The notes under the pieces: model-generated | Database searches by the model: none | Seen by the model: the letters and a program-made list of their open reading frames with translations, nothing else | Told to the model about the DNA's origin: nothing | Assembly: GCA_963746775.1 (NCBI GenBank) | Contig: CAVVCK010000002.1 | Span: forward strand, 232,978 to 296,977 | Direction of reading: 5' to 3' | Source: an uncultured bacterium | GTDB lineage: Bacteria; Patescibacteriota; JABMPQ01; CAVVCK01 | DNA length: 64,000 bases | Position numbers and translations under genes: made by a program | In this document: in pieces, positions 15,324 through 63,871 of the stretch | How positions within the stretch are numbered: the first letter of the stretch is position 1 | Layout of the letters: each line of letters opens with the position of its first letter

Positions 15324-16136
15324 TTATTTTTTATCATAAATTATTACTCTATTAAATAACAATACCCCCATATAAATTAGCGAAGCAATAAAAATTATTA
15401 CTGGCCCAGTAGGCCAATTAATATAATAAGATAAAAACAATCCAGAGGTTGATGATATTAGACTTATTAAAATAGACAAAAACATCATTCCTTTCAAAGT
15501 TTTACTCAATAAATTCGCACTAGCCGCCGGCAGGGTAAGCAGCGCAATCACTAAAATTATACCTACCACTTTTATTAAAATTACCACTGTTAAAGCTACT
15601 AAACTTAATAAAAGTAAATAAAAAGGTAACACTCTAATATTAGTTACTTCGGCAAATTCTTCATCAAATATAATAGCTAAAAATCTTTTAAAAAAAATAA
15701 ATACGCTTGATAAAACTATTACATCCAAAATGATAATTAATACTATATCTTGATTAGTAGTTAATAAAATATTGCCAAATAAATAGCTAAACAAATCACC
15801 TACATAACCTGGGGTTAAATAAACAAAGACCAAACCAATAGACATTCCCAAAGCCCACATTGCTCCTATCAAAGAATCTTCGTGGGTTTTTGATTTCTTG
15901 GAAATAATACCAATACCTAAAGCAGATAGAATACTAAAAATTGCTGCTCCGATAACCGGGTTAAATCCCAAAAAATAAGCTAACCCTAATCCTCCAAAAG
16001 AGGCATGGGCAATCGAGCCAGATATAAAAGAAAGTTTTTTGAGTACTATAAAACTTCCTATAATACCACAAGCAACACTAGCTAGTGTGCTAACAATTAA
16101 AGCGTTTTGGAAAAAATGATAAGTTAATATTTGCAT
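15324..16136 (-). CDS. znuB: Metal (Zn/Mn) ABC transporter permease
   Basis: 270 aa, 8-9 TM, ZnuB/MntB-like; operon with ATPase, SBP and Fur-family regulator. Confidence 0.75.
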   Translation of the reverse strand: MQILTYHFFQNALIVSTLASVACGIIGSFIVLKKLSFISGSIAHASFGGLGLAYFLGFNPVIGAAIFSILSALGIGIISKKSKTHEDSLIGAMWALGMSIGLVFVYLTPGYVGDLFSYLFGNILLTTNQDIVLIIILDVIVLSSVFIFFKRFLAIIFDEEFAEVTNIRVLPFYLLLLSLVALTVVILIKVVGIILVIALLTLPAASANLLSKTLKGMMFLSILISLISSTSGLFLSYYINWPTGPVIIFIASLIYMGVLLFNRVIIYDKK

Positions 16137-16143
16137 ATGTTAT

Positions 16144-16177
16144 TTATATCTGCAGGGAACAGGCATGCCTGTTCCCT
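16144..16177. repeat. Perfect 32-bp palindrome (intercistronic znuC-znuB), core ACAGGCATGCCTGT
   Basis: ctgcagggaacaggcatgcctgttccctgcag; same 14-nt core recurs inside prmC at 55756..55783; GGGAACA arms recur at 32780..32807. Confidence 0.5.
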
Positions 16178-16192
16178 GCAGAACATTATTTA

Positions 16193-16957
16193 TCAATGCT
16201 TGTGTTCAGGAAAAACACGATGAGGCATACCATGCCCGATAAGATCCATATCGCATTTATAACCAGCTTTTATTAATCCTTCATTGATCGTTCCTTCCCG
16301 ATGAAAAAACATAGTTTTATTCAAACAGCCAACTTGTTTAATAAAAGGAGAAATAGCTCCAATATCATGTGAAACAACGATAATAGCTGTCTTGCTACTG
16401 TTTATTTCTTTTAAATATTCAAACAAGTTTTTTTCTGAAGAAATATCAATATTTGAAGTTGGCTCATCTAAAATTAAAAGCTGTGGTTCTCGCACCAAAG
16501 CTCTGGCAATTAAAACTCTTTGTATTTGCCCGCCAGATAATTCCCCTATCTGTTTATTTTTCAAATTTTCTATACCAACTTTCTGCATAGCTGCCAAAGA
16601 TTTTTCTTTATCTATTTTAGAATATCTGCTAAACATTCTCTTTCTGCTCAAAATCCCAGTCAAAATAACATCTATTACTTTAATTGGAAAATCAAGTTCT
16701 ATTTTAGCGTATTGTGGAACATAGCCAATATCATTGCGCGCTTTTTTAGGACTTTTGCCAAATACTCTTACCTCTCCAAAATCAGGCTTTAGGATTCCTA
16801 TTAAAATCTTTAAAAAAGTTGTTTTGCCTCCACCATTGGGACCAATCAATCCGACAAAATCATCTTCCATCATTTCAAAATAAACTTTTTCCAAAACTTT
16901 GATGTTCTTGTTGTAGGAAAAATTTAAATTTTTTACTTCTATTATTTTATTTCTCAT
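16193..16957 (-). CDS. znuC: Metal ABC transporter ATP-binding protein
   Basis: Walker A GPNGGGKTT, LSGGQ signature, Walker B LLILDEPT. Confidence 0.85.
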   Translation of the reverse strand: MRNKIIEVKNLNFSYNKNIKVLEKVYFEMMEDDFVGLIGPNGGGKTTFLKILIGILKPDFGEVRVFGKSPKKARNDIGYVPQYAKIELDFPIKVIDVILTGILSRKRMFSRYSKIDKEKSLAAMQKVGIENLKNKQIGELSGGQIQRVLIARALVREPQLLILDEPTSNIDISSEKNLFEYLKEINSSKTAIIVVSHDIGAISPFIKQVGCLNKTMFFHREGTINEGLIKAGYKCDMDLIGHGMPHRVFPEHKH

Positions 16958-16961
16958 AATT

Positions 16962-17882
16962 CTATTCTAAATTATTGGCTATCGTTTTTCCAATATTTTT
17001 TAAATTATTAGCAAAGTCCTGGGCAAGAGGATCTATCTGTACTGTTATACCTCCTATTTCCGCGGCTATAGCTTCAGCGTTTTTAGTACTAAATTCTTTT
17101 TGAACAAAGATTACTTTAATATTTTCTGCTTTTGCTTCCTTAGTTAACTCTTCAATCTGGCTAGCCGTTGGTTCTTTGCCTTCTATTTCTATAGGAATTT
17201 GCTTTAATCCGTATTCATCTAATAAATATCCAAAAGCAGGGTGATAAACAATTATATTTTTATTTTCTATTTTCAATAAATTTTCTTTTAAATAATTATC
17301 CAATTTATCTAATTCACTTAAATAAGCTTCTTTGTTATTTTTATAATAATTCTCATTTTCTGGATTAAGCTCTACTAAAGCTTTGTAAATATTTTCTACG
17401 TATATCTTGGCATTATTAACCGAAAACCAAGTATGGGGATCTTTGCCTCCTTCAACTGACTCATCTTCTCCTTCTTTATTATTTAAATTATTTTCTAAAT
17501 TTCTTAAAATGATCCCTTCTGACCCATCTATAACTTTCATGCTTTTGTTTTGTTCTATTATTTTACTCATATTAGAATTTTCAAACTCTACATGACCAGC
17601 TTCTACATATAAATTTGCCTCAGAAATTTTAGTAAGCATATTAGCATTAAGTTCGTAAGAATGAGGTTCATACCCCGGAGGTATTACTTCGGAAACATCA
17701 ACCCTATCTCCACCAATTTTCTCTACAAATTCAATCAGAGGTAAAATAGTAACTACCACTTTTGTCTTTTTATTATCTGTTCCATTTTTTACTTCGTTGA
17801 TCTGATTTTTCAACGCACAACCCGTTATAATAAAGGCTGAAATTAGTAGTAGTAATCCTAATTTTAGAATATTATTTTTCAT
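16962..17882 (-). CDS. znuA: Metal ABC transporter substrate-binding lipoprotein (ZnuA/TroA family)
   Basis: Lipobox ITGC, cluster-9 SBP architecture with acidic His/Asp/Glu-rich loop (GEDESVEGGKDPH). Confidence 0.75.
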   Translation of the reverse strand: MKNNILKLGLLLLISAFIITGCALKNQINEVKNGTDNKKTKVVVTILPLIEFVEKIGGDRVDVSEVIPPGYEPHSYELNANMLTKISEANLYVEAGHVEFENSNMSKIIEQNKSMKVIDGSEGIILRNLENNLNNKEGEDESVEGGKDPHTWFSVNNAKIYVENIYKALVELNPENENYYKNNKEAYLSELDKLDNYLKENLLKIENKNIIVYHPAFGYLLDEYGLKQIPIEIEGKEPTASQIEELTKEAKAENIKVIFVQKEFSTKNAEAIAAEIGGITVQIDPLAQDFANNLKNIGKTIANNLE

Positions 17883-50595: not shown

Positions 50596-52236
50596 ATGCA
50601 ACAAACCATCATAAAAAATTTAATCCTTGATCTGCTTAAATTAAATAATCCAAATCTACCCAAACTTGAAAAGATAAAGAAATTATACGCTAAAAAATAC
50701 AAAATTAGCGTTATTCCTAATACCTCAATAATAGAGACTTATCAAGGTTTAGTCAAAAATAATAAAATTAAAAGTAACAAAAAATTTGAAGAATTTTTGA
50801 AAACTAAAAAAACCAGATCGCTATCTGGAATTGTCTCGGTTGCCATTTTCACCAAACCAACTCCCTGCCCTGGTAGATGTATTTACTGCCCAGATCAAAA
50901 AGATATGCCCAAAAGTTATTTAGATAATGAACCAGCCGTTATGCGCGCCATACTTTGCAATTATGATCCCGCAAAACAGATCCAAGCTAGAATTAAAGCT
51001 TTAGAAATTAACGGACATCCTACCGATAAAATTGAATTAATTGTTATGGGAGGTACGTGGAGCGTACATCCTAAAAGATACCAAAATAATTTTATTAAAA
51101 AATGTTTTCAGACTTGTAATGCTAAGGAGTCCCAGCGAAAGCTGGAGAAGATCAACACTCCAAGCGTTAAAATCTCTGACTATCGTCAGGACTCCGAATT
51201 AAAATCTGAACAAAAGAAAAATGAAAAAGCCAAGCACAGAATTATTGGCCTAACTCTAGAAACCCGTCCTGATTATATTAATCAAAAAGAAATATTGCAC
51301 ATGAGAGAATTAGGCGCAACTCGCGTCGAATTAGGGGTACAAAGCATCTATGATGATATTTTAAAATTTTGTAATAGAGGGCACTTAGTAGATCAAACTA
51401 TCAAGGCAACAAAACTTTTAAAAGATGCTGGCTTTAAAATTAATTACCACATGATGCCTAATCTGCCCGGAAGCTCTAGAGAAAAAGATTTAAAGATGTT
51501 TGAAGATTTATTCTCCAGAGAAGAATTCCAACCAGATATGTTAAAAATTTATCCTTGCGTCTTAACCAAATATTCTGAACTTTATAATTTATGGAAGAAT
51601 GGAAAATATAAACCTTACACTGATCAGGAAATTATAAACTTGTTAATTAAAATAAAACAAAAAATCCCTAAATATGTTCGCATAATGAGATTAGGCCGTG
51701 ATATCCCGGCTAATAATATTATCGCTGGTAATAAAATTTCCAATATTAGGCAAGAGATAAAAAGAATATTTGAAAAAGAAGATTTAAAATGTAAATGTAT
51801 TAGATGTCGAGAAGTTAGAGATATAGAATTTAAAATGAATAATGTAGAATTAAAGAGATATGATTACAAAGCATCCGGAGGAAAAGAGATATTTCTATCT
51901 TTCGAAGATAAGAAAAATGATAAATTGTTGGCCTTTTTGCGCCTACGTATCCCCTCTCAATATTTCACTAAAGAATCTCATTTTATAAAAAGCTTAAATA
52001 ATTCTTCTATAATTCGCGAACTGCATACTTATGGTGAATTAATTCCCATTAGCAGCAAAGGTAAAATACAACATTTTGGTTTTGGTAAAAAATTAATCAA
52101 AGAGGCTGAAAAAATTACTAAAAAAGAATTCAAATTAAATAAAATTACTGTTATTTCTGGAGTGGGAGTTAGGGGGTATTATAGAAAGCAAGGATATAAA
52201 CTAAAAGATAGTTACATGATTAAAAACTTAAAATAG
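50596..52236 (+). CDS. elp3: Elp3-family radical-SAM/GNAT tRNA carboxymethyluridine synthase homolog
   Basis: Radical-SAM CPGRCIYCP cluster motif, central Elp3 domain, C-terminal GNAT motif IRELHTYGELIPISS...QHFGFGKKLIKEAE...ISGVGVRGYYRKQGY. Confidence 0.8.
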   Translation: MQQTIIKNLILDLLKLNNPNLPKLEKIKKLYAKKYKISVIPNTSIIETYQGLVKNNKIKSNKKFEEFLKTKKTRSLSGIVSVAIFTKPTPCPGRCIYCPDQKDMPKSYLDNEPAVMRAILCNYDPAKQIQARIKALEINGHPTDKIELIVMGGTWSVHPKRYQNNFIKKCFQTCNAKESQRKLEKINTPSVKISDYRQDSELKSEQKKNEKAKHRIIGLTLETRPDYINQKEILHMRELGATRVELGVQSIYDDILKFCNRGHLVDQTIKATKLLKDAGFKINYHMMPNLPGSSREKDLKMFEDLFSREEFQPDMLKIYPCVLTKYSELYNLWKNGKYKPYTDQEIINLLIKIKQKIPKYVRIMRLGRDIPANNIIAGNKISNIRQEIKRIFEKEDLKCKCIRCREVRDIEFKMNNVELKRYDYKASGGKEIFLSFEDKKNDKLLAFLRLRIPSQYFTKESHFIKSLNNSSIIRELHTYGELIPISSKGKIQHFGFGKKLIKEAEKITKKEFKLNKITVISGVGVRGYYRKQGYKLKDSYMIKNLK

Positions 52237-59195: not shown

Positions 59196-60565
<1,370 letters not shown>

Positions 60566-60696
60566 TTATATATTGTTTAAATTTTAATTTATTAATTTTT
60601 ATAATTTTGGCTTATTTTAGCCTAATATATATTATTAGTCAATAAAATATTGACTTATTTATCATTTTATGATTTAATATATGCAGGAGGCTCGAC

Positions 60697-61047
60697 ATAA
60701 AGTTTGCATCTTGTTTTTTTTCCGCTATTTTTTTTACCTTTTTTGCTGGCTGTGACCAGCAGCAGGAGGGACAACAACGGTCTCCTCAAGAAGATATTGT
60801 CGAAAATGTTGCTCCGACACCGGCTCCCCGGTGTGAAAATATTTCTTCGGCCGAAGTACCTGAATGTCCCGAGCTGACTTATGAAGCTACGCGTGGTAGC
60901 TGTCAAATCGGCAGCTGCTATTTTGCAGCCTTAAAAGCAGGTCGGAGACAGGACCGAGTCGAAGCCCTGTGTATTTCTATGAAGTTAGCAAGACTTCAAA
61001 GCAAAATTATGTATATTGATGAATTTGCCTGCCTTCAAAACCCATGA
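60697..61047 (+). CDS. Candidate small Cys-rich lipoprotein ORF in GC-rich island (no in-frame ATG)
   Basis: Frame-1 ORF ...(I)KFASCFFSAIFFTFFAGC|DQQQEGQQRSPQEDIVENVAPTPAPRCENISSAEVPECPELTYEATRGSCQIGSCYFAALKAGRRQDRVEALC...; AGGAGG RBS at 60685-60690 six nt before ATA at 60697; ATG at 60681 is out of frame across a T8 run; GC and codon usage unlike the rest of the window. Confidence 0.3.
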   Translation: MKFASCFFSAIFFTFFAGCDQQQEGQQRSPQEDIVENVAPTPAPRCENISSAEVPECPELTYEATRGSCQIGSCYFAALKAGRRQDRVEALCISMKLARLQSKIMYIDEFACLQNP

Positions 61048-61097
61048 GAACATAGCCAGTATCCTCTCTGGCTTTCAAATTTCATCGCTCATTTCTT

Positions 61098-61258
61098 TAA
61101 GGGGATTCAACCAAAAAACATTATTATAAAAAGTGTTTTGTGGTTAAATTATTTCTGGAGTCCCAGCAATAGTCGAAGATTTGAACATATTAAGTGTTTT
61201 TTGTCTTCAGCTTTTGTTGGAACTCCTTTTTTTTATTTGGAAATGTTCAATCCCCTTA
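61098..61258. repeat. 14-bp inverted repeat pair (TAAGGGGATTCAAC / GTTCAATCCCCTTA) bracketing ~130 bp just downstream of atpG
   Basis: 13/14 complementary; interior has direct repeat AAGTGTTTT x2; possible MITE-like element or long terminator hairpin. Confidence 0.4.
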
Positions 61259-61264
61259 TTAATT

Positions 61265-62230
61265 CTATCCTTCCAATGCTGCCTTCCCCGCACTAATTTC
61301 CGTAATTTCTTTTGTAATAACTGCCTGTCTAGCTTTATTAAATGTTAGAGTCAAATCATCAATCATATCACTCGCTGCATCATTAGCACTCTTCATAGCA
61401 ACCATGCGAGCCGAATGTTCAGAGGCATTAGACTCTAGGGCTCCTTGATATATTTGCATTTCAATTAATCTGGGTAACATAGTTTTCAATACTTCACCTG
61501 GTGATGGCTCAAAAATGTATTCTGTTCCTTCAGTCTTTTCTGTATTGTCAGTTCCTTCTGTGCTCTCTGTGGTTGCATTCTTCTCGTCTTCATCCCTCCC
61601 CACTGTCGCCAAATCAATAATATTTTCTTTAGTTATTGGAAGTAGTGTATTAATAACCGGTAGCTGTGTCATAGTATTTACAAAATTACTATAAATTAAA
61701 ACCACTTTATTGTATTTTTTTTCAACCCAATCATCCAAAGGAATTTGAGCAATTGGTGTAATATCATTGATACCAAATTTATCACCAATATTTAAAAATT
61801 CAGCCGATATATTAAATCCATTACGCTTTAGAAAATCTCTGCCCTTCTTACCAACAGCAATAAAATCAACTTTAGATTTATCTTCATGATCTTTCATAAA
61901 ATCTAGGGTCTTCTTTAAAACATTAGCATTTAGCGCTCCGCATAAACCCTTATTAGTAGTCATCAATACAACCAATATTCTATCAGATTTAACATCAAAT
62001 AATAAAGGATGCATTTTCCTATCAACCCTTCCAGATAACTCTGACAGCAATTTTAAAGAAGCTATGGCATATTCTTTGGTTTGCATAGCTGCATCTTGAG
62101 CTCGCTTCATCTTAACAGAGGCTACCATTTCCATAGCCTTAGTTATTTGCTTGGTATTTTTAATTGAGGTGATACGACGTCTAATGTCGCGTGTACTGGG
62201 CATAATTATTTTATAATAAACTCTAAACAC
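61265..62230 (-). CDS. atpG: F0F1 ATP synthase subunit gamma (with acidic Thr/Glu-rich insertion)
   Basis: N- and C-terminal coiled-coil helices (…ITKEITEISAGKAALEG C-terminus), central Rossmann-like domain; insertion EDEKNATTESTEGTDNTEKTEGTE. Confidence 0.85.
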   Translation of the reverse strand: MFRVYYKIIMPSTRDIRRRITSIKNTKQITKAMEMVASVKMKRAQDAAMQTKEYAIASLKLLSELSGRVDRKMHPLLFDVKSDRILVVLMTTNKGLCGALNANVLKKTLDFMKDHEDKSKVDFIAVGKKGRDFLKRNGFNISAEFLNIGDKFGINDITPIAQIPLDDWVEKKYNKVVLIYSNFVNTMTQLPVINTLLPITKENIIDLATVGRDEDEKNATTESTEGTDNTEKTEGTEYIFEPSPGEVLKTMLPRLIEMQIYQGALESNASEHSARMVAMKSANDAASDMIDDLTLTFNKARQAVITKEITEISAGKAALEG

Positions 62231-62347: not shown

Positions 62348-63871
62348 TTAACTTTTCACAAACCATTCCTTATCCACTGTCCCTTTAAATTCCTCTACCG
62401 CTTCCTTCAACCCACCCTCAATCTCTTCATCCAATTCTTTCTTTTCAGCAATCTTGCTCATTAACTTACCTTGCGAATCTTTTAAGTATTTATGGAATTT
62501 CTCTTCAAATTCTTTTATTTTATCTTCTTTAATATCATCCAATAAACCATTAATAGCCGCATAAATAATGGCTACCTGGTTCTCAACTGCCATAGGTTTG
62601 TATTGGTCCTGTTTTAGAATTTCTGTTACTCTTTTACCTCTCTCAAGCTTTTGTTTGGTTTCCTTATCTAAATCAGATCCGAACTGAGCAAAAGCGGCTA
62701 ACTCTCGGAATTGAGCTAAGTCTAATCTTAACTGTCCAGCAACGGCCTTCATAGCCTTAGTCTGAGCTGCTGACCCTACACGAGAAACTGATAAACCAAC
62801 ATTCAAAGCAGGCTTTATACCAGCGTAAAATAAATCTGATTCTAGATATATTTGACCGTCAGTAATAGAAATAACATTAGTAGGAATATAGGCAGAAACG
62901 TCGCCAGCCTGAGTTTCAATAATAGGTAGAGCGGTAATGCTTCCTCCGCCATAGTCTTCTGATACCTTGCAGGCTCTCTCTAATAATTTGGAATGCAAAT
63001 AGAAAATATCACCAGGATAAGCTTCACGGCCTGGAGGTCTTTTTAATAACAATGACATTTCACGATAAGCCCAAGCATGTTTAGATAAATCATCATACAC
63101 TATTAATGCTTCTTTGCCTTGTTTCATAAAATACTCGGCCATAGCACAACCAGCATAGGGAGCAATATAGGCTTGAGAAGCTGGATCAGAAGCACCAGCC
63201 ATTACTACTATAGTATGTTCCATAGCTCCATGTGCTTCTAAGTCTGCTACTATTCTAGCTATTTTTGATTCTTTCTGACCAATAGCTACATATATACAAA
63301 TTAAATCTTTTCCTTTTTGATTAATTATAGTATCAAGAGCTATAGCAGTTTTACCGGTCTGCCTGTCGCCAATGATTAGTTCTCTCTGTCCACGACCAAT
63401 AGGAATAGTAGCATCAATAGCTTTTACACCAGTTTGTACCGGAGTATCAACTCCTTTTCTCTCAATAACACCTGGAGCAATTTTCTCAATAGGCATGAAC
63501 TCTTCACTCTCTAAATCTCCTTTGCCATCAATAGTTTCACCTAAAGCATTTACCACTCTGCCTATCAAACTATTTGACACCGGTACACTTAAAATTTTAC
63601 CAGTAGATTTAACCGTATCACCTTCTTTAATTTTTAAATAATCACCCAAAATAATAGCACCCACCGTATACTCTTCTAAATTTAGGGCTACACCAAATAC
63701 ACCTCCTGGAAATTCCAACATTTCCGAAGACATACAATCGGTAAGGCCATGAATTTGAGCAATACCATCACCTACTTTCGTAACTGTACCCACTTTCTCT
63801 AAAGATGATTTTGCTTCAAAACCCTTTATTTTATTTTTTAGTTCTTCAACAATTTGGTTATTATCTGACAT
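62348..63871 (-). CDS. atpA: F0F1 ATP synthase subunit alpha
   Basis: Walker [10 protein letters not shown], 507 aa, typical alpha N-terminal beta-barrel and C-terminal helical domain. Confidence 0.9.

What the first reader, a model, noticed from the sequence alone, without database searches (positions are those of the whole stretch)
60640..61060. GC-rich (~50% vs ~30% background) island inside the atp operon with a plus-strand Cys-rich lipoprotein-like ORF lacking an in-frame ATG
About 700 bp separate atpG and atpD, where these genes usually abut. 60700..61000 is far more GC-rich than anything else in the window and uses GC-rich codons (CCG, GCC, CGG, CCC).

One plus-strand frame is open for ~115 codons and encodes a textbook lipoprotein start (KFASCFFSAIFFTFFAGC, lipobox A-G-C), followed by a Gln/Pro-rich linker and a 6-Cys domain. 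A perfect AGGAGG sits 6 nt before an ATA codon at 60697. The only nearby ATG (60681) is out of frame across a T8 homopolymer at 60714-60721.

This suggests a horizontally acquired small lipoprotein gene with a non-ATG start, a slippage-prone poly-T (phase-variable or misassembled), or a contaminating/chimeric insert. I checked for RNase P, tmRNA and SRP RNA signatures in both orientations and found none.
Basis: seen in the sequence. Interest (0 to 1): 0.7.

Follow-up and report, generated by a model that had tools for sequence, protein, structure and literature searches.

The report
Orphan lipoprotein gene inside atp operon
The GC-rich patch is most likely a strain-specific small lipoprotein gene with no known relatives and no normal start codon, sitting in a variable slot that a repeated hairpin element has opened between two ATP-synthase genes of a Patescibacteria (candidate phyla radiation, CPR) bacterium; this is moderately interesting, not extraordinary.

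Summary
atpG and atpD are 708 nt apart, against a median of 68 nt in 76 other genomes. The window's GC maximum lies here (0.52 per 200 nt), though two other places reach 0.50. A 116-codon plus-strand frame (60697-61047) begins with a lipoprotein signal peptide, with AGGAGG 6 nt before an ATA. The only ATG is out of frame across a T8 run.

It is not an assembly chimera. A Logan contig from run ERR11571143, built by a different assembler, is 100% identical over the whole spacer, including ATA and T8. No Rfam family matches. The ORF has no homologue in any database searched.

Close relatives (82-87% atpG identity) show that the site is a polymorphic insertion slot. Some have 41-43 nt spacers. Others carry different small antisense ORFs, each with a Shine-Dalgarno motif and an ATG. 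All are followed by the same structured, terminator-like module, E1 (61098-61238).

The 70-nt core of E1 is a dispersed palindromic repeat. A second copy lies in frame inside the window's Elp3 gene, as Rickettsia palindromic elements do.

Best reading: a foreign-looking orphan lipoprotein gene as slot cargo, either weakly translated from AUA or recently disabled. Phase variation at the T8 run remains possible.

The parts
60557..60591 (.). Ancestral AT-rich spacer directly upstream of atpD, shared with relatives that have no insert
   Evidence: 34-41 nt align at 90-100% with the complete 43-nt and 41-nt atpG-atpD spacers of L082 and L091.
60592..61264 (.). Derived insertion of about 673 nt between atpG and atpD: variable cargo plus the conserved module E1
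   Evidence: Absent in L082, L091 and P0009 (spacers 41-43 nt) and in more distant L106 and L107 (77 and 135 nt). Present with different cargo in L085, L087-L090 and L099, and without an ORF in L083.
60576..60665 (+). AT-rich region with three sigma-70-like promoter matches on the plus strand; one on the minus strand (60642-60614) faces atpD
   Evidence: TTTAAA-18-TATAAT (10 of 12), TTGGCT-17-TATTAT, TAGTCA-18-TATCAT. These are consensus matches only. Relatives have TTGACA boxes in the equivalent place.
60681..60683 (+). Out-of-frame ATG, one base upstream in phase of the long ORF's frame
   Evidence: Its frame stops after 24 codons. Removing one T from the T8 run would fuse it to the long ORF and give MQEARHKVCILFFSAIFFTFFAGC, which also passes the lipobox rule.
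60685..60690 (+). Shine-Dalgarno-like AGGAGG, 6 nt before ATA
   Evidence: It is the only AGGAGG in the window outside a long gene. Only 1 of 56 host genes has an SD core of 5 nt or more.
60697..61047 (+). 116-codon ORF plus TGA: signal peptide (60697-60750), lipobox Cys codon (60751-60753), Gln/Pro/Glu-rich linker, 6-Cys C-terminal domain
   Evidence: Translation. GC1/2/3 are 0.53/0.46/0.35 with coding-type periodicity, and the synonymous-codon score is at z = -4.1 relative to host genes. Lipobox rule met. No homologue anywhere.
60714..60721 (+). T8 homopolymer inside the signal-peptide codons; a second T8 lies at 60728-60735
   Evidence: Both runs are identical in the separately assembled contig L081.
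61054..61073 (+). Short hairpin AGCCAG...CTGGCT just after the stop codon
   Evidence: The 61040-61095 segment has z = -3.75 on the plus strand.
61098..61238 (+). E1, a conserved structured module: hairpin H1 (61104-61150), 70-nt branched palindrome H2 (61157-61226), T8 run (61227-61234). It looks like an intrinsic terminator for plus-strand transcripts only
   Evidence: Folding z = -8.4 on plus and -7.2 on minus. About 79% identical over 177 nt to L087 and also present in L085, L099 and L083. 86% of cells are paired, against 39-52% for slid controls, and 8 pairs show compensatory change. Covariance-model hits of 101-152 bits in relatives.
61098..61258 (.). Outer inverted repeat TAAGGGGATTCAAC / GTTCAATCCCCTTA enclosing E1
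   Evidence: 14 nt, 93% complementary. It is poorly conserved in L087 and its distal arm is missing in L085.
61265..62203 (-). atpG (F1 gamma subunit), convergent with the ORF
   Evidence: 100% identical to P0002, Pfam PF00231.
59196..60556 (-). atpD (F1 beta subunit), split in this assembly by a 1-nt deletion near 60035
   Evidence: L081 has the extra base and an intact frame.
51127..51196 (-). Second copy of the H2 palindrome, in frame inside the Elp3-like gene (50596-52236, plus strand)
   Evidence: Covariance-model hit of 63.7 bits. It gives a 20-aa insertion relative to PDB 6ia8. It is 83-86% identical to the H2 copies of L087, L085 and L131. Presence or absence varies among Elp3 orthologues.

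Best explanation
The GC-rich island is the body of a strain-specific orphan gene for a small secreted lipoprotein. It is transcribed convergently to atpG, as a separate unit inserted between atpG and atpD.

The unit has the same layout as inserts at this site in close relatives:
- an AT-rich promoter region next to atpD;
- a strong Shine-Dalgarno motif;
- a small ORF on the strand opposite the atp operon;
- a conserved structured module E1 (hairpin H1, 70-nt palindrome H2, T-run).

E1 would terminate the antisense transcript before it enters atpG. On the operon strand it has no U-tract, so it should let atp transcription through. The ORF cargo differs between lineages, while E1 and the atpD-proximal 35 nt are conserved.

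The H2 core is a dispersed palindromic repeat that also sits in frame inside the Elp3 gene. The slot was therefore probably created, and is kept variable, by a MITE/RPE-like repeat family (miniature inverted-repeat transposable elements; Rickettsia palindromic elements).

If made, the protein would be exported by Sec, lipidated at Cys19 and anchored on the outer face of the membrane. The mature part is 97 aa, with a Gln/Pro/Glu-rich linker and six cysteines.

The SD-defined start position holds ATA, where the relatives' cargo genes hold ATG. The gene is therefore either translated at a low level from AUA or has recently lost its start codon by a G-to-A change.

Shown: the anatomy, the conservation pattern, the composition, the absence of homologues, and reproducibility in a second assembly. 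Inferred: transcription, termination, translation, lipidation, and the route of acquisition.
For: - ORF statistics: the 124-codon open frame has P = 0.003-0.016 in shuffles, and the lipobox rule fires at only 0.45% of arbitrary positions.
- Coding periodicity: GC1 > GC2 > GC3 (0.53/0.46/0.35), parallel to host genes (0.43/0.32/0.21). G is highest at codon position 1 and T at position 3.
- Foreign-like composition: GC3 exceeds that of every one of 57 host ORFs. The synonymous-codon score is at z = -4.1, and only 0.1% of host 116-codon chunks score as low.
- Translation signal: AGGAGG 6 nt before the first codon is the only intergenic AGGAGG in 64 kb. Only 1 of 56 host genes in the window and 0 of 24 in relatives have an SD core.
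- Parallel layout in relatives: L099 has AGGAGGtgtgagATG before a 60-aa zinc-ribbon ORF. L085 has GAGGAGGatatgATG before a 114-aa ORF with a hydrophobic, membrane-helix-like N-terminal stretch. L087 has AGGAAGctacagaATG before a 70-aa ORF. All are antisense to the operon, and E1 follows each.
- The insert is derived and polymorphic: spacers are 41-43 nt in L082, L091 and P0009, and 77 and 135 nt in L106 and L107.
- E1 structure: z = -8.4, 86% of cells paired, 8 compensatory pairs, T-run conserved in all five sequences, and G-U pairs slightly favour the plus strand.
- H2 is a repeat: there are copies in Elp3 of the window and of L131, and in the atp spacers.
- The host makes lipoproteins: a ZnuA-like protein with lipobox ITGC lies at 16962-17882.
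- Not an assembly artefact: L081 is 100% identical across the spacer.
Against: - There is no canonical start codon in frame. AUA initiates at only about 1-2% of AUG in E. coli (bioRxiv 10.1101/063800).
- No homologue exists, so frame conservation and purifying selection cannot be tested.
- The AlphaFold2 single-sequence model is low-confidence (pLDDT 42.7), which says nothing either way.
- The host clade does not use SD motifs for its own genes, so it is untested whether its ribosomes respond to AGGAGG.
- The GC-rich core contains several short perfect hairpins and folds somewhat better than average (z about -3 to -4, against a background of -1.3 +/- 2.0). A non-coding origin is not excluded.
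- No donor, transposase, integrase, target-site duplication or terminal repeat was found that would explain how cargo is exchanged.
- It is not known whether L081 comes from reads independent of those behind the window.
Confidence: 0.55

Rival explanations
1. The gene starts at ATG 60681, which has an AT-rich, SD-less leader like the host's own genes, and the T8 run is a switch. With T7, or with loss of one U by RNA-polymerase slippage, or with a +1 ribosomal slip on UUU UUU, the ATG frame joins the long ORF. The result would be a phase-variable or slippage-dependent lipoprotein.
For: - The ATG frame plus removal of one T gives MQEARHKVCILFFSAIFFTFFAGC, which passes the lipobox rule and has a better charged n-region.
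- The sequence before this ATG (ttatgatttaatat) resembles host initiation regions, which lack SD motifs.
- Runs of A or T around 9 nt, sometimes 8, support transcriptional slippage in bacteria (PMC1088944).
Against: - Both available assemblies show T8, the OFF state.
- T8 is at the low end for efficient slippage, and A/T runs of 8 or more are common in this 31% GC window: 28 long homopolymers (A/T of 8 or more, or G/C of 6 or more) in 64 kb.
- AGGAGG lies after this ATG but at the ideal 6-nt distance from ATA, the same spacing as AGGAGG-6 nt-ATG in L099.
- No stimulatory element for a +1 shift is evident.
Confidence: 0.15
2. The ORF is a dead or never-functional remnant. Either the cargo gene lost its ATG (ATG to ATA) and is decaying, or the segment is non-coding hairpin-rich filler or an unclassified RNA whose open frame is incidental. 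Palindromic elements that tolerate in-frame insertion tend to lack stop codons.
For: - There is no canonical start and no homologues.
- The slot cargo is dispensable: L083 keeps H2 but has no ORF, and L082 and L091 have no insert.
- The core folds at z about -3 to -4 and contains perfect short palindromes.
- The neighbouring H2 element is demonstrably read through as protein in Elp3.
Against: - The frame is intact for 116 codons, with a textbook signal peptide and lipobox exactly at its 5' end and an SD in front.
- Codon-position periodicity is coding-like.
- The folding z-score lies within the spread of ordinary coding windows, whose minimum is -6.1.
- There is no Rfam hit.
- The GC-rich segment has no sequence similarity to any other spacer or repeat.
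Confidence: 0.2
3. The GC-rich segment is an assembly chimera or contaminant joined into the atp operon.
For: - GC is 0.49-0.52 in a 0.315 background.
- The neighbouring atpD carries a frameshift and a cluster of 17 SNPs relative to L081, so this assembly is locally imperfect.
Against: - The Logan contig L081 (run ERR11571143, a different assembler) runs from atpG through the spacer into atpD. It has 0 differences in 60557-61264.
- The insert's ends are native AT-rich sequence and a module (E1) shared with relatives at the same site.
- The signal-peptide part of the ORF is T-rich like the host.
Confidence: 0.02
4. The ORF plus E1 is an integron-type gene cassette, with E1 acting as an attC recombination site.
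For: - The layout is a small orphan ORF followed by an imperfect inverted repeat of about 160 nt.
- In the window, the outer arms read ATTCAAC ... GTTCAAT. The first matches the RYYYAAC core consensus and the second misses GTTRRRY at one base. These consensus sequences are recalled from general knowledge.
- Different ORFs sit next to a similar structured element in relatives.
Against: - The putative core sites are not conserved. L087 has GATCTAC, and L085 lacks the distal arm altogether.
- The conserved parts are the inner hairpins and the T-run, not the ends.
- At 161 nt, E1 is longer than typical attC sites.
- No integrase was seen in any fetched locus.
- H2 also occurs alone inside a coding gene.
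Confidence: 0.03

Closest known systems
Bacterial lipoproteins (Lgt/LspA substrates; lipobox, PROSITE PS51257-type signal)
   Same: It has a short charged n-region, a hydrophobic stretch of about 14 residues, and F-A-G-C with Cys at position 19. A disordered linker and a small folded domain follow. The same window encodes a ZnuA-like lipoprotein with lipobox ITGC.
   Different: It has no canonical start codon. Phe occupies the -3 position, where Leu is usual. The mature domain matches no family in Pfam, NCBIfam, PHROGs, PADLOC, or 1.84 billion representative proteins. Lipidation is untested.
Rickettsia palindromic elements (RPEs) and other MITEs that insert in frame into genes (review PMC10969869)
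   Same: The 70-nt H2 core of E1 is a palindromic repeat with several copies per genome. One copy lies in frame in a tolerant loop of Elp3 and adds 20 residues. Presence or absence varies among orthologues.
   Different: The host is a different phylum (Patescibacteria). H2 is shorter than the roughly 150 bp quoted for RPEs. Only 2 copies were seen in 64 kb. No terminal repeats or target duplications were identified. The genome-wide copy number is unknown.
[quoted passage not shown]
   Same: It is a repeated hairpin element followed by a T-run, lying at the 3' end of a transcription unit, so it could act as a portable terminator.
   Different: E1 is composite (H1 plus a branched H2) and has no sequence similarity to SPRITE. 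Terminator activity has not been shown, and the simple terminator scan does not call it because of its long interior.
Contingency loci: homopolymer-controlled phase-variable surface proteins
   Same: A T8 run lies in the 5' coding part of a putative surface lipoprotein, and an alternative ATG frame would be restored by a 1-nt change.
   Different: No tract-length variation has been observed, as both assemblies show T8. A T-run of 8 is ordinary in this AT-rich genome. The SD fits the ATA frame, not the ATG.
Small accessory genes lodged in atp operon spacers of other CPR bacteria (23S rRNA-intervening-sequence protein genes, PF05635)
   Same: The atpG-atpD junction also hosts small extra genes in other CPR lineages: L001 (Candidatus Kuenenbacteria), L009 (Candidatus Saccharibacteria) and L047 (Candidatus Berkelbacteria), with spacers up to 645 nt in other genomes.
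   Different: Those genes lie on the operon strand and belong to a known family. Here the cargo is antisense, orphan, SD-bearing and bounded by E1.

Membership tests
Bacterial lipoprotein (lipobox signal peptide) | A positively charged residue in the first 7 residues, then an uncharged hydrophobic stretch | tested here: met
   The N-terminus is M/I-K-FASCFFSAIFFTFF. A PROSITE-style rule written from memory returns true for both the ATA-start and the ATG/T7 versions.
Bacterial lipoprotein (lipobox signal peptide) | Lipobox [LIVMFWSTAG]2-[LIVMFYSTAGCQ]-[AGS]-C with Cys at position 15-35 | tested here: met
   F-F-A-G-C with Cys19 (Cys24 in the ATG/T7 version). The stricter L-[AS]-[GA]-C consensus is not met, because Phe is at -3.
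Bacterial lipoprotein (lipobox signal peptide) | A translatable gene with a recognised start codon | tested here: not met
   There is no in-frame ATG, GTG or TTG; ATA is at 60697. ATA is an allowed but weak initiator.
Bacterial lipoprotein (lipobox signal peptide) | Diacylglyceryl modification and signal peptidase II cleavage | not testable with these tools
   This needs labelling or globomycin experiments. Presence of lgt and lspA in the genome was not examined.
Horizontally acquired or lineage-specific gene | Composition and codon use deviating from the host | tested here: met
   GC3 is 0.345 against 0.213 +/- 0.039 (host maximum 0.295). The synonymous-codon score is at z = -4.1. An SD is present in an SD-less host.
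Horizontally acquired or lineage-specific gene | Patchy phyletic distribution: absent from close relatives at the same site | tested here: met
   Relatives have an empty site or different cargo.
Horizontally acquired or lineage-specific gene | An identifiable donor or homologue elsewhere | tested here: not met
   There is no hit in any protein or DNA search. The single phmmer hit, P0001, is a 15-fold repeat protein matching only the low-complexity linker.
Phase-variable contingency gene | A homopolymer in the 5' coding region whose length change restores a start-to-stop frame | tested here: met
   T8 lies at 60714-60721, and ATG 60681 with T7 gives an intact lipoprotein ORF.
Phase-variable contingency gene | Observed tract-length heterogeneity among reads or strains | tested here: inconclusive
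   Only two assemblies are available, and both show T8.
Rfam structured RNA families | A covariance-model match at or above the gathering score | tested here: not met
   There is none in 60400-61400 at E up to 10 beyond chance-level hits. Only tRNAs match in the whole window.
MITE / RPE-like palindromic repeat (for E1-H2) | Multiple copies at unrelated sites | tested here: met
   Copies lie at window 61157-61226 and 51127-51196. L085 (atp spacer) and L131 (Elp3), from the same metagenome, are 93% identical. H1-like copies occur in the L087 atpH-atpA spacer.
MITE / RPE-like palindromic repeat (for E1-H2) | In-frame insertion into a protein-coding gene, with presence or absence varying among orthologues | tested here: met
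   There is a 20-aa insertion relative to PDB 6ia8. The element is present in P0122, partial in P0123, and absent in P0125, P0127 and P0134.
MITE / RPE-like palindromic repeat (for E1-H2) | Terminal inverted repeats and target-site duplication | tested here: inconclusive
   H2 is itself a palindrome (GGAGTCCC...GGGACTCC). No clear duplication was seen at either site. TTAATT at both ends of the whole insert is weak evidence in AT-rich DNA.
Integron gene cassette (attC) | Conserved R''/R' core sites (RYYYAAC ... GTTRRRY) at the ends of the hairpin | tested here: not met
   They fit approximately only in the window. They are not conserved in L087, and the distal arm is missing in L085.
Integron gene cassette (attC) | An integron integrase nearby, or cassette arrays | not tested
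   None appeared among the called genes of the fetched loci. No systematic search was made.
Intrinsic (Rho-independent) terminator (for E1) | A stable stem followed directly by a U-tract on the transcribed strand | tested here: inconclusive
   The H2 stem GGAGUCCCAGC / GUUGGAACUCC is followed by U8 on the plus strand, and this is conserved in 5 of 5 sequences. The consensus scan does not report it because the loop exceeds its limit. There is no functional test.

The most novel reading that the evidence does not exclude
In this Patescibacteria clade, a family of RPE-like palindromic elements (H1 and H2) may have built terminator-bounded slots inside the ATP-synthase operon. In these slots, small SD-bearing genes of outside origin, such as lipoproteins, zinc-ribbon proteins and membrane proteins, would be swapped in and out on the antisense strand with no recognisable integrase or transposase. 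This would be a cassette-exchange system of a new type. The window's orphan lipoprotein would be one current cargo, expressed from a non-AUG start.
Probability: 0.15. Interest if true: 0.65.

Novelty: new member of a known kind. Interest (0 to 1): 0.4.

Why it matters
On its own, this is one more orphan surface-protein gene in an uncultured, reduced-genome bacterium. The context gives it more value in three ways.

- It shows that the interior of an essential, normally compact operon can be a hot spot of small-gene turnover in CPR bacteria.
- It shows that a palindromic repeat family behaves like Rickettsia palindromic elements, with in-frame insertion into Elp3, in a phylum where such elements have not, to my knowledge, been described. 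No literature search was made on that point.
- It shows that the inserted genes use Shine-Dalgarno signals that the host's own genes lack. That offers a handle on where episymbiont surface proteins come from and how foreign genes are expressed in SD-poor hosts.

It also gives a concrete test case for AUA initiation versus homopolymer slippage.

Tried and rejected
- **Rfam.** The spacer was scanned on both strands at E up to 10, and the whole window at gathering score. Only chance-level hits and six tRNAs were found.
- **Family libraries.** Pfam, NCBIfam, PHROGs and PADLOC gave nothing on the ORF. On the relatives' slot ORFs, nothing exceeded a curated cut-off; only generic zinc-ribbon hints appeared for L099.
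- **Homologue searches for the ORF.**
  - The word-indexed search of 5.8 billion clusters found nothing.
  - The exhaustive phmmer search over 1.84 billion representatives gave only P0001, a spurious 15-repeat protein matching the linker.
  - Back-translated scans of genome, viral and metagenome contigs found nothing.
  - tblastn against phages and plasmids found nothing.
- **Structure prediction.** The AlphaFold2 single-sequence model had pLDDT 42.7, too low to use, so no fold search was run.
- **Repeats within the window.** BLAST found none. The second H2 copy appeared only with the covariance model. With filters off, the only addition was a marginal 20-bit hit at 16111-16194.
- **Metagenome scan with an E1 pattern.** Of 12 matches, only L099 is a true relative.
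- **Viral scans.** The H2 pattern gave no hits. The H1 pattern gave 23 generic hairpins with no link to E1.
- **attC/integron idea.** Rejected because the end motifs are not conserved.
- **Exact look-up of the window's atpA protein.** Not on record. The source genome was reached through atpG instead.
- **GTDB species representatives.** They hold no close relative; the best atpG identity is 48%.
Full report
**What is at the coordinates**

The window is a 31.5% GC stretch of a Patescibacteria (CPR) genome. The best atpG match among GTDB species representatives is a Candidatus Kuenenbacteria MAG at 48% identity.

The atp operon runs on the minus strand: atpA 62348-63871, atpG 61265-62203, and atpD from 60556 downwards. 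Between atpG and atpD lie 708 nt (60557-61264). In 76 other genomes where atpD follows atpG, the median spacer is 68 nt and the largest is 645 nt.

The highest GC of the whole window, 0.52 in 200 nt, lies at 60759-60958. A tRNA cluster and an SDR-family (short-chain dehydrogenase) gene reach 0.50, so 'far more than anything else' is somewhat overstated.

It consists of:
- IKFASCFFSAIFFTFFAGC;
- a Gln/Pro/Glu-rich linker;
- a domain with six more cysteines;
- TGA at 61045-61047.

AGGAGG (60685-60690) lies 6 nt before the ATA. The frame has no ATG, GTG or TTG until near its 3' end. ATG 60681 is in another frame that stops after 24 codons. T8 is at 60714-60721.

**Is it an artefact?**

The atpG protein is 100% identical to a database protein carried on a 547-kb contig and on a 2.7-kb Logan contig of run ERR11571143. 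That Logan contig, L081, comes from a different assembler. It spans atpG, the whole spacer and 1 kb of atpD.

L081 differs from the window at 18 positions, all inside atpD (59651-60089). There are no differences in 60557-61264, so ATA and T8 are reproduced. A chimeric or contaminating insert is therefore very unlikely.

One of the 18 differences is a base missing from the window near 60035, which splits atpD into two ORFs. L081 has an intact atpD, so that frameshift is probably a consensus or strain-mosaic error.

**Coding or RNA?**

Rfam gives nothing for the spacer on either strand, even at E up to 10. It finds only tRNAs in the whole window.

The GC-rich core folds at z about -3 to -4. Ordinary 350-nt windows of this sequence give -1.3 +/- 2.0, with a minimum of -6.1, so this is not exceptional.

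Several lines favour coding:
- A 124-codon stop-free frame arises in 0.3-1.6% of shuffles.
- A lipobox rule is satisfied exactly at the 5' end of the frame, and it fires at only 0.45% of arbitrary positions.
- GC by codon position is 0.53/0.46/0.35, the same descending pattern as the window's other genes (called host genes here; 0.43/0.32/0.21). G is highest at position 1 and T at position 3.
- This AGGAGG is the only one in 64 kb that lies outside a long gene.

The gene also looks foreign. Its GC3 exceeds that of every host ORF in the window. Its synonymous-codon score is 4.1 sd below the host mean, and only 0.1% of host 116-codon chunks score as low. The host does make lipoproteins: a ZnuA-like protein at 16962-17882 has lipobox ITGC.

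**Homologues**

None were found. Pfam, NCBIfam, PHROGs and PADLOC are empty. The 5.8-billion-cluster search found nothing.

The exhaustive phmmer search over 1.84 billion representatives returned one protein, P0001. It is a 2628-aa protein made of 15 tandem repeats that match only the low-complexity linker.

Back-translated scans of genome, viral and metagenome contigs found nothing, and neither did tblastn against phages and plasmids. A single-sequence AlphaFold2 model is uninformative, with pLDDT 42.7. The ORF is a true orphan, so conservation of its frame cannot be tested.

**What relatives show**

Relatives were found through atpG and their contigs were fetched. A DNA-pattern scan added one more locus.

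| Locus | atpG identity to window | atpG-atpD spacer | Content |
|---|---|---|---|
| L082 | 83% | 43 nt | no insert |
| L091 | 86% | 41 nt | no insert |
| P0009 | 75% | 43 nt | no insert |
| L106 | 61% | 77 nt | no insert |
| L107 | 59% | 135 nt | no insert |
| L087-L090 | 87% | 595 nt | 70-aa CxxC...CxxC ORF after AGGAAG-7 nt-ATG |
| L085 | 83% | 747 nt | 114-aa ORF with a hydrophobic N-terminal stretch, after GAGGAGG-ATATG-ATG |
| L083 | 82% | 430 nt | H2 element, no ORF |
| L092 | 87% | at least 197 nt (contig ends) | resembles the atpG-proximal part of L083 |
| L099 | atpG not on contig (atpD N-terminal part 91%) | at least 488 nt (contig ends) | 60-aa zinc-ribbon ORF after AGGAGG-6 nt-ATG |

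The short state is therefore ancestral, and the insert is derived and polymorphic.

The window shares 34-41 nt next to atpD with the empty sites, and then diverges. The long spacers share with the window only one block, at window 61084-61256 (79% identity over 177 nt to L087). The rest, including the GC-rich ORF, is unique to the window.

In the same position and orientation, antisense to the operon and between atpD and the shared block, the relatives carry other small ORFs. They are not similar to each other or to the window ORF.

The host clade does not otherwise use Shine-Dalgarno motifs. An SD core is present before 1 of 56 genes in the window and 0 of 24 in relatives. The slot ORFs of L085 and L087 also have GC3 above their neighbouring atp genes.

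The window's AGGAGG-6 nt-ATA therefore occupies the place where an ATG would be expected. This favours ATA 60697 as the start or former start over ATG 60681. In E. coli, AUA initiates at about 1-2% of the AUG level (bioRxiv 10.1101/063800).

**The shared block, E1**

On the plus strand, E1 (61098-61238) folds into three parts:
- a hairpin H1 (61104-61150);
- a branched 70-nt palindrome H2 (61157-61226);
- a T8 run (61227-34) directly after H2.

The folding z-score is -8.4 on the plus strand and -7.2 on the minus strand. Across five sequences, 86% of pair cells are standard pairs, against 39-52% when partners are slid. Eight pairs carry compensatory changes, a value reached by 34 of 500 shuffles, which is modest with only five sequences.

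The T-run after H2 is kept in all five sequences. G-U pairs slightly favour the plus strand in three of the five.

On the operon strand the element reads A-run, hairpin, AGAAAUAAUU, with no U-tract. The simplest reading is a one-way intrinsic terminator. It would stop the antisense small-gene transcript before atpG while letting atp transcription through. This is an inference: the consensus scan does not call it because of its long interior.

**E1 is built from a repeat**

A covariance model of E1 finds a second H2 copy in the window at 51127-51196, scoring 63.7 bits. This copy lies inside the Elp3-like radical-SAM/GNAT gene (50596-52236). There it is read in frame and adds 20 residues relative to Elp3 of PDB entry 6ia8.

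Among Elp3 orthologues, the segment is present in P0122, shortened in P0123, and absent in P0125, P0127 and P0134. The P0122 gene (L131) contains an H2 scoring 79 bits. It is 93% identical to the atp-spacer H2 of L085, which comes from the same metagenome.

An H1-like hairpin also follows a further antisense AGGAGG-ATG small ORF between atpH and atpA in L087.

H2 thus behaves like Rickettsia palindromic elements, which insert in frame into genes. E1 as a whole resembles terminator-like repeat elements such as SPRITE (PMC10969869).

An integron attC reading was considered because the outer arms in the window resemble RYYYAAC/GTTRRRY. Those arms are not conserved in L087 or L085, so it was rejected.

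**Most likely explanation and rivals**

Best explanation (confidence about 0.55): the island is an orphan, foreign-looking lipoprotein gene carried as the variable cargo of a repeat-bounded antisense slot in the atp operon. It is either weakly translated from AUA or has just lost its ATG.

Rivals:
- ATG 60681 combined with T8 slippage or phase variation (0.15). The sequence allows it and the literature on A/T runs supports it (PMC1088944). But the SD position fits ATA, and both assemblies show T8.
- A dead or non-coding remnant (0.2).
- An integron cassette (0.03).
- An assembly chimera (0.02).

**Verdict**

The feature is a new member of known kinds: an orphan lipoprotein gene and a MITE/RPE-like repeat. 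The context makes it moderately interesting (0.4). The most novel reading still open is an integrase-less small-gene exchange slot built from palindromic terminators. I put its probability at about 0.15.

Noticed in passing
window 59651-60089 (atpD), deletion near 60035: atpD is split into 178-aa and 261-aa ORFs by one missing base: TCGTA here against TCAGTA in the near-identical contig L081. All 17 SNPs between the two assemblies cluster in the same 440 nt. This looks like a strain-mosaic or consensus error in a conserved gene rather than a real pseudogene.
   Followed up: partly
window 51127-51196, inside the Elp3-like gene 50596-52236: A 70-nt palindromic element (H2, the core of the atp-spacer module) is inserted in frame. 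It adds about 20 residues (RKLEKINTPSVKISDYRQDSE) relative to solved Elp3 structures. It is present, partial or absent in orthologues, which is RPE-like behaviour in a CPR bacterium.
   Followed up: yes
whole window; L082, L083, L106: Host genes essentially lack Shine-Dalgarno motifs (1 of 56 here, 0 of 24 in relatives). Starts are preceded by A/T-rich sequence instead. The small antisense ORFs in the atp spacers are the exception.
   Followed up: partly
L087 419-796 (atpH-atpA spacer): A second insert lies in the atp operon of a relative. It has an antisense ORF of about 63 aa after AGGAGG-8 nt-ATG, followed by an H1-like hairpin (ACCACAAAAC...GTTTTGTGGT). This is the same architecture as the atpG-atpD slot.
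   Followed up: partly
L091 146-556; L092 787-1224: A PDDEXK_3 (nuclease-fold) gene is inserted between atpA and atpG in two close relatives but not in the window. This is further evidence that the operon's junctions are insertion hot spots in this clade.
   Followed up: no
L001 7431-7760; L009 and L047 atpG-atpD spacers: In other CPR lineages, the atpG-atpD junction carries a 23S rRNA-intervening-sequence protein gene (PF05635) on the operon strand. In the Kuenenbacteria loci L001 and L003, atpD does not follow atpG at all.
   Followed up: partly
window 16962-17882 (minus strand): A ZnuA-family solute-binding protein has a clear lipoprotein signal (MKNNILKLGLLLLISAFIITGC). This shows that the organism uses the lipoprotein pathway.
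   Followed up: partly
window 16111-16194: There is a marginal covariance-model hit (20 bits, E about 0.016, filters off) in the 56-nt gap between two minus-strand genes. It is probably just a hairpin and was not examined further.
   Followed up: no
Elp3 orthologues P0126 and P0128, same loop as the H2 insertion: Other relatives carry different insertions of similar length at the same Elp3 loop (for example KIKIQIPNKYQITNYKLQK). These are possibly other repeat families using the same tolerant site.
   Followed up: no
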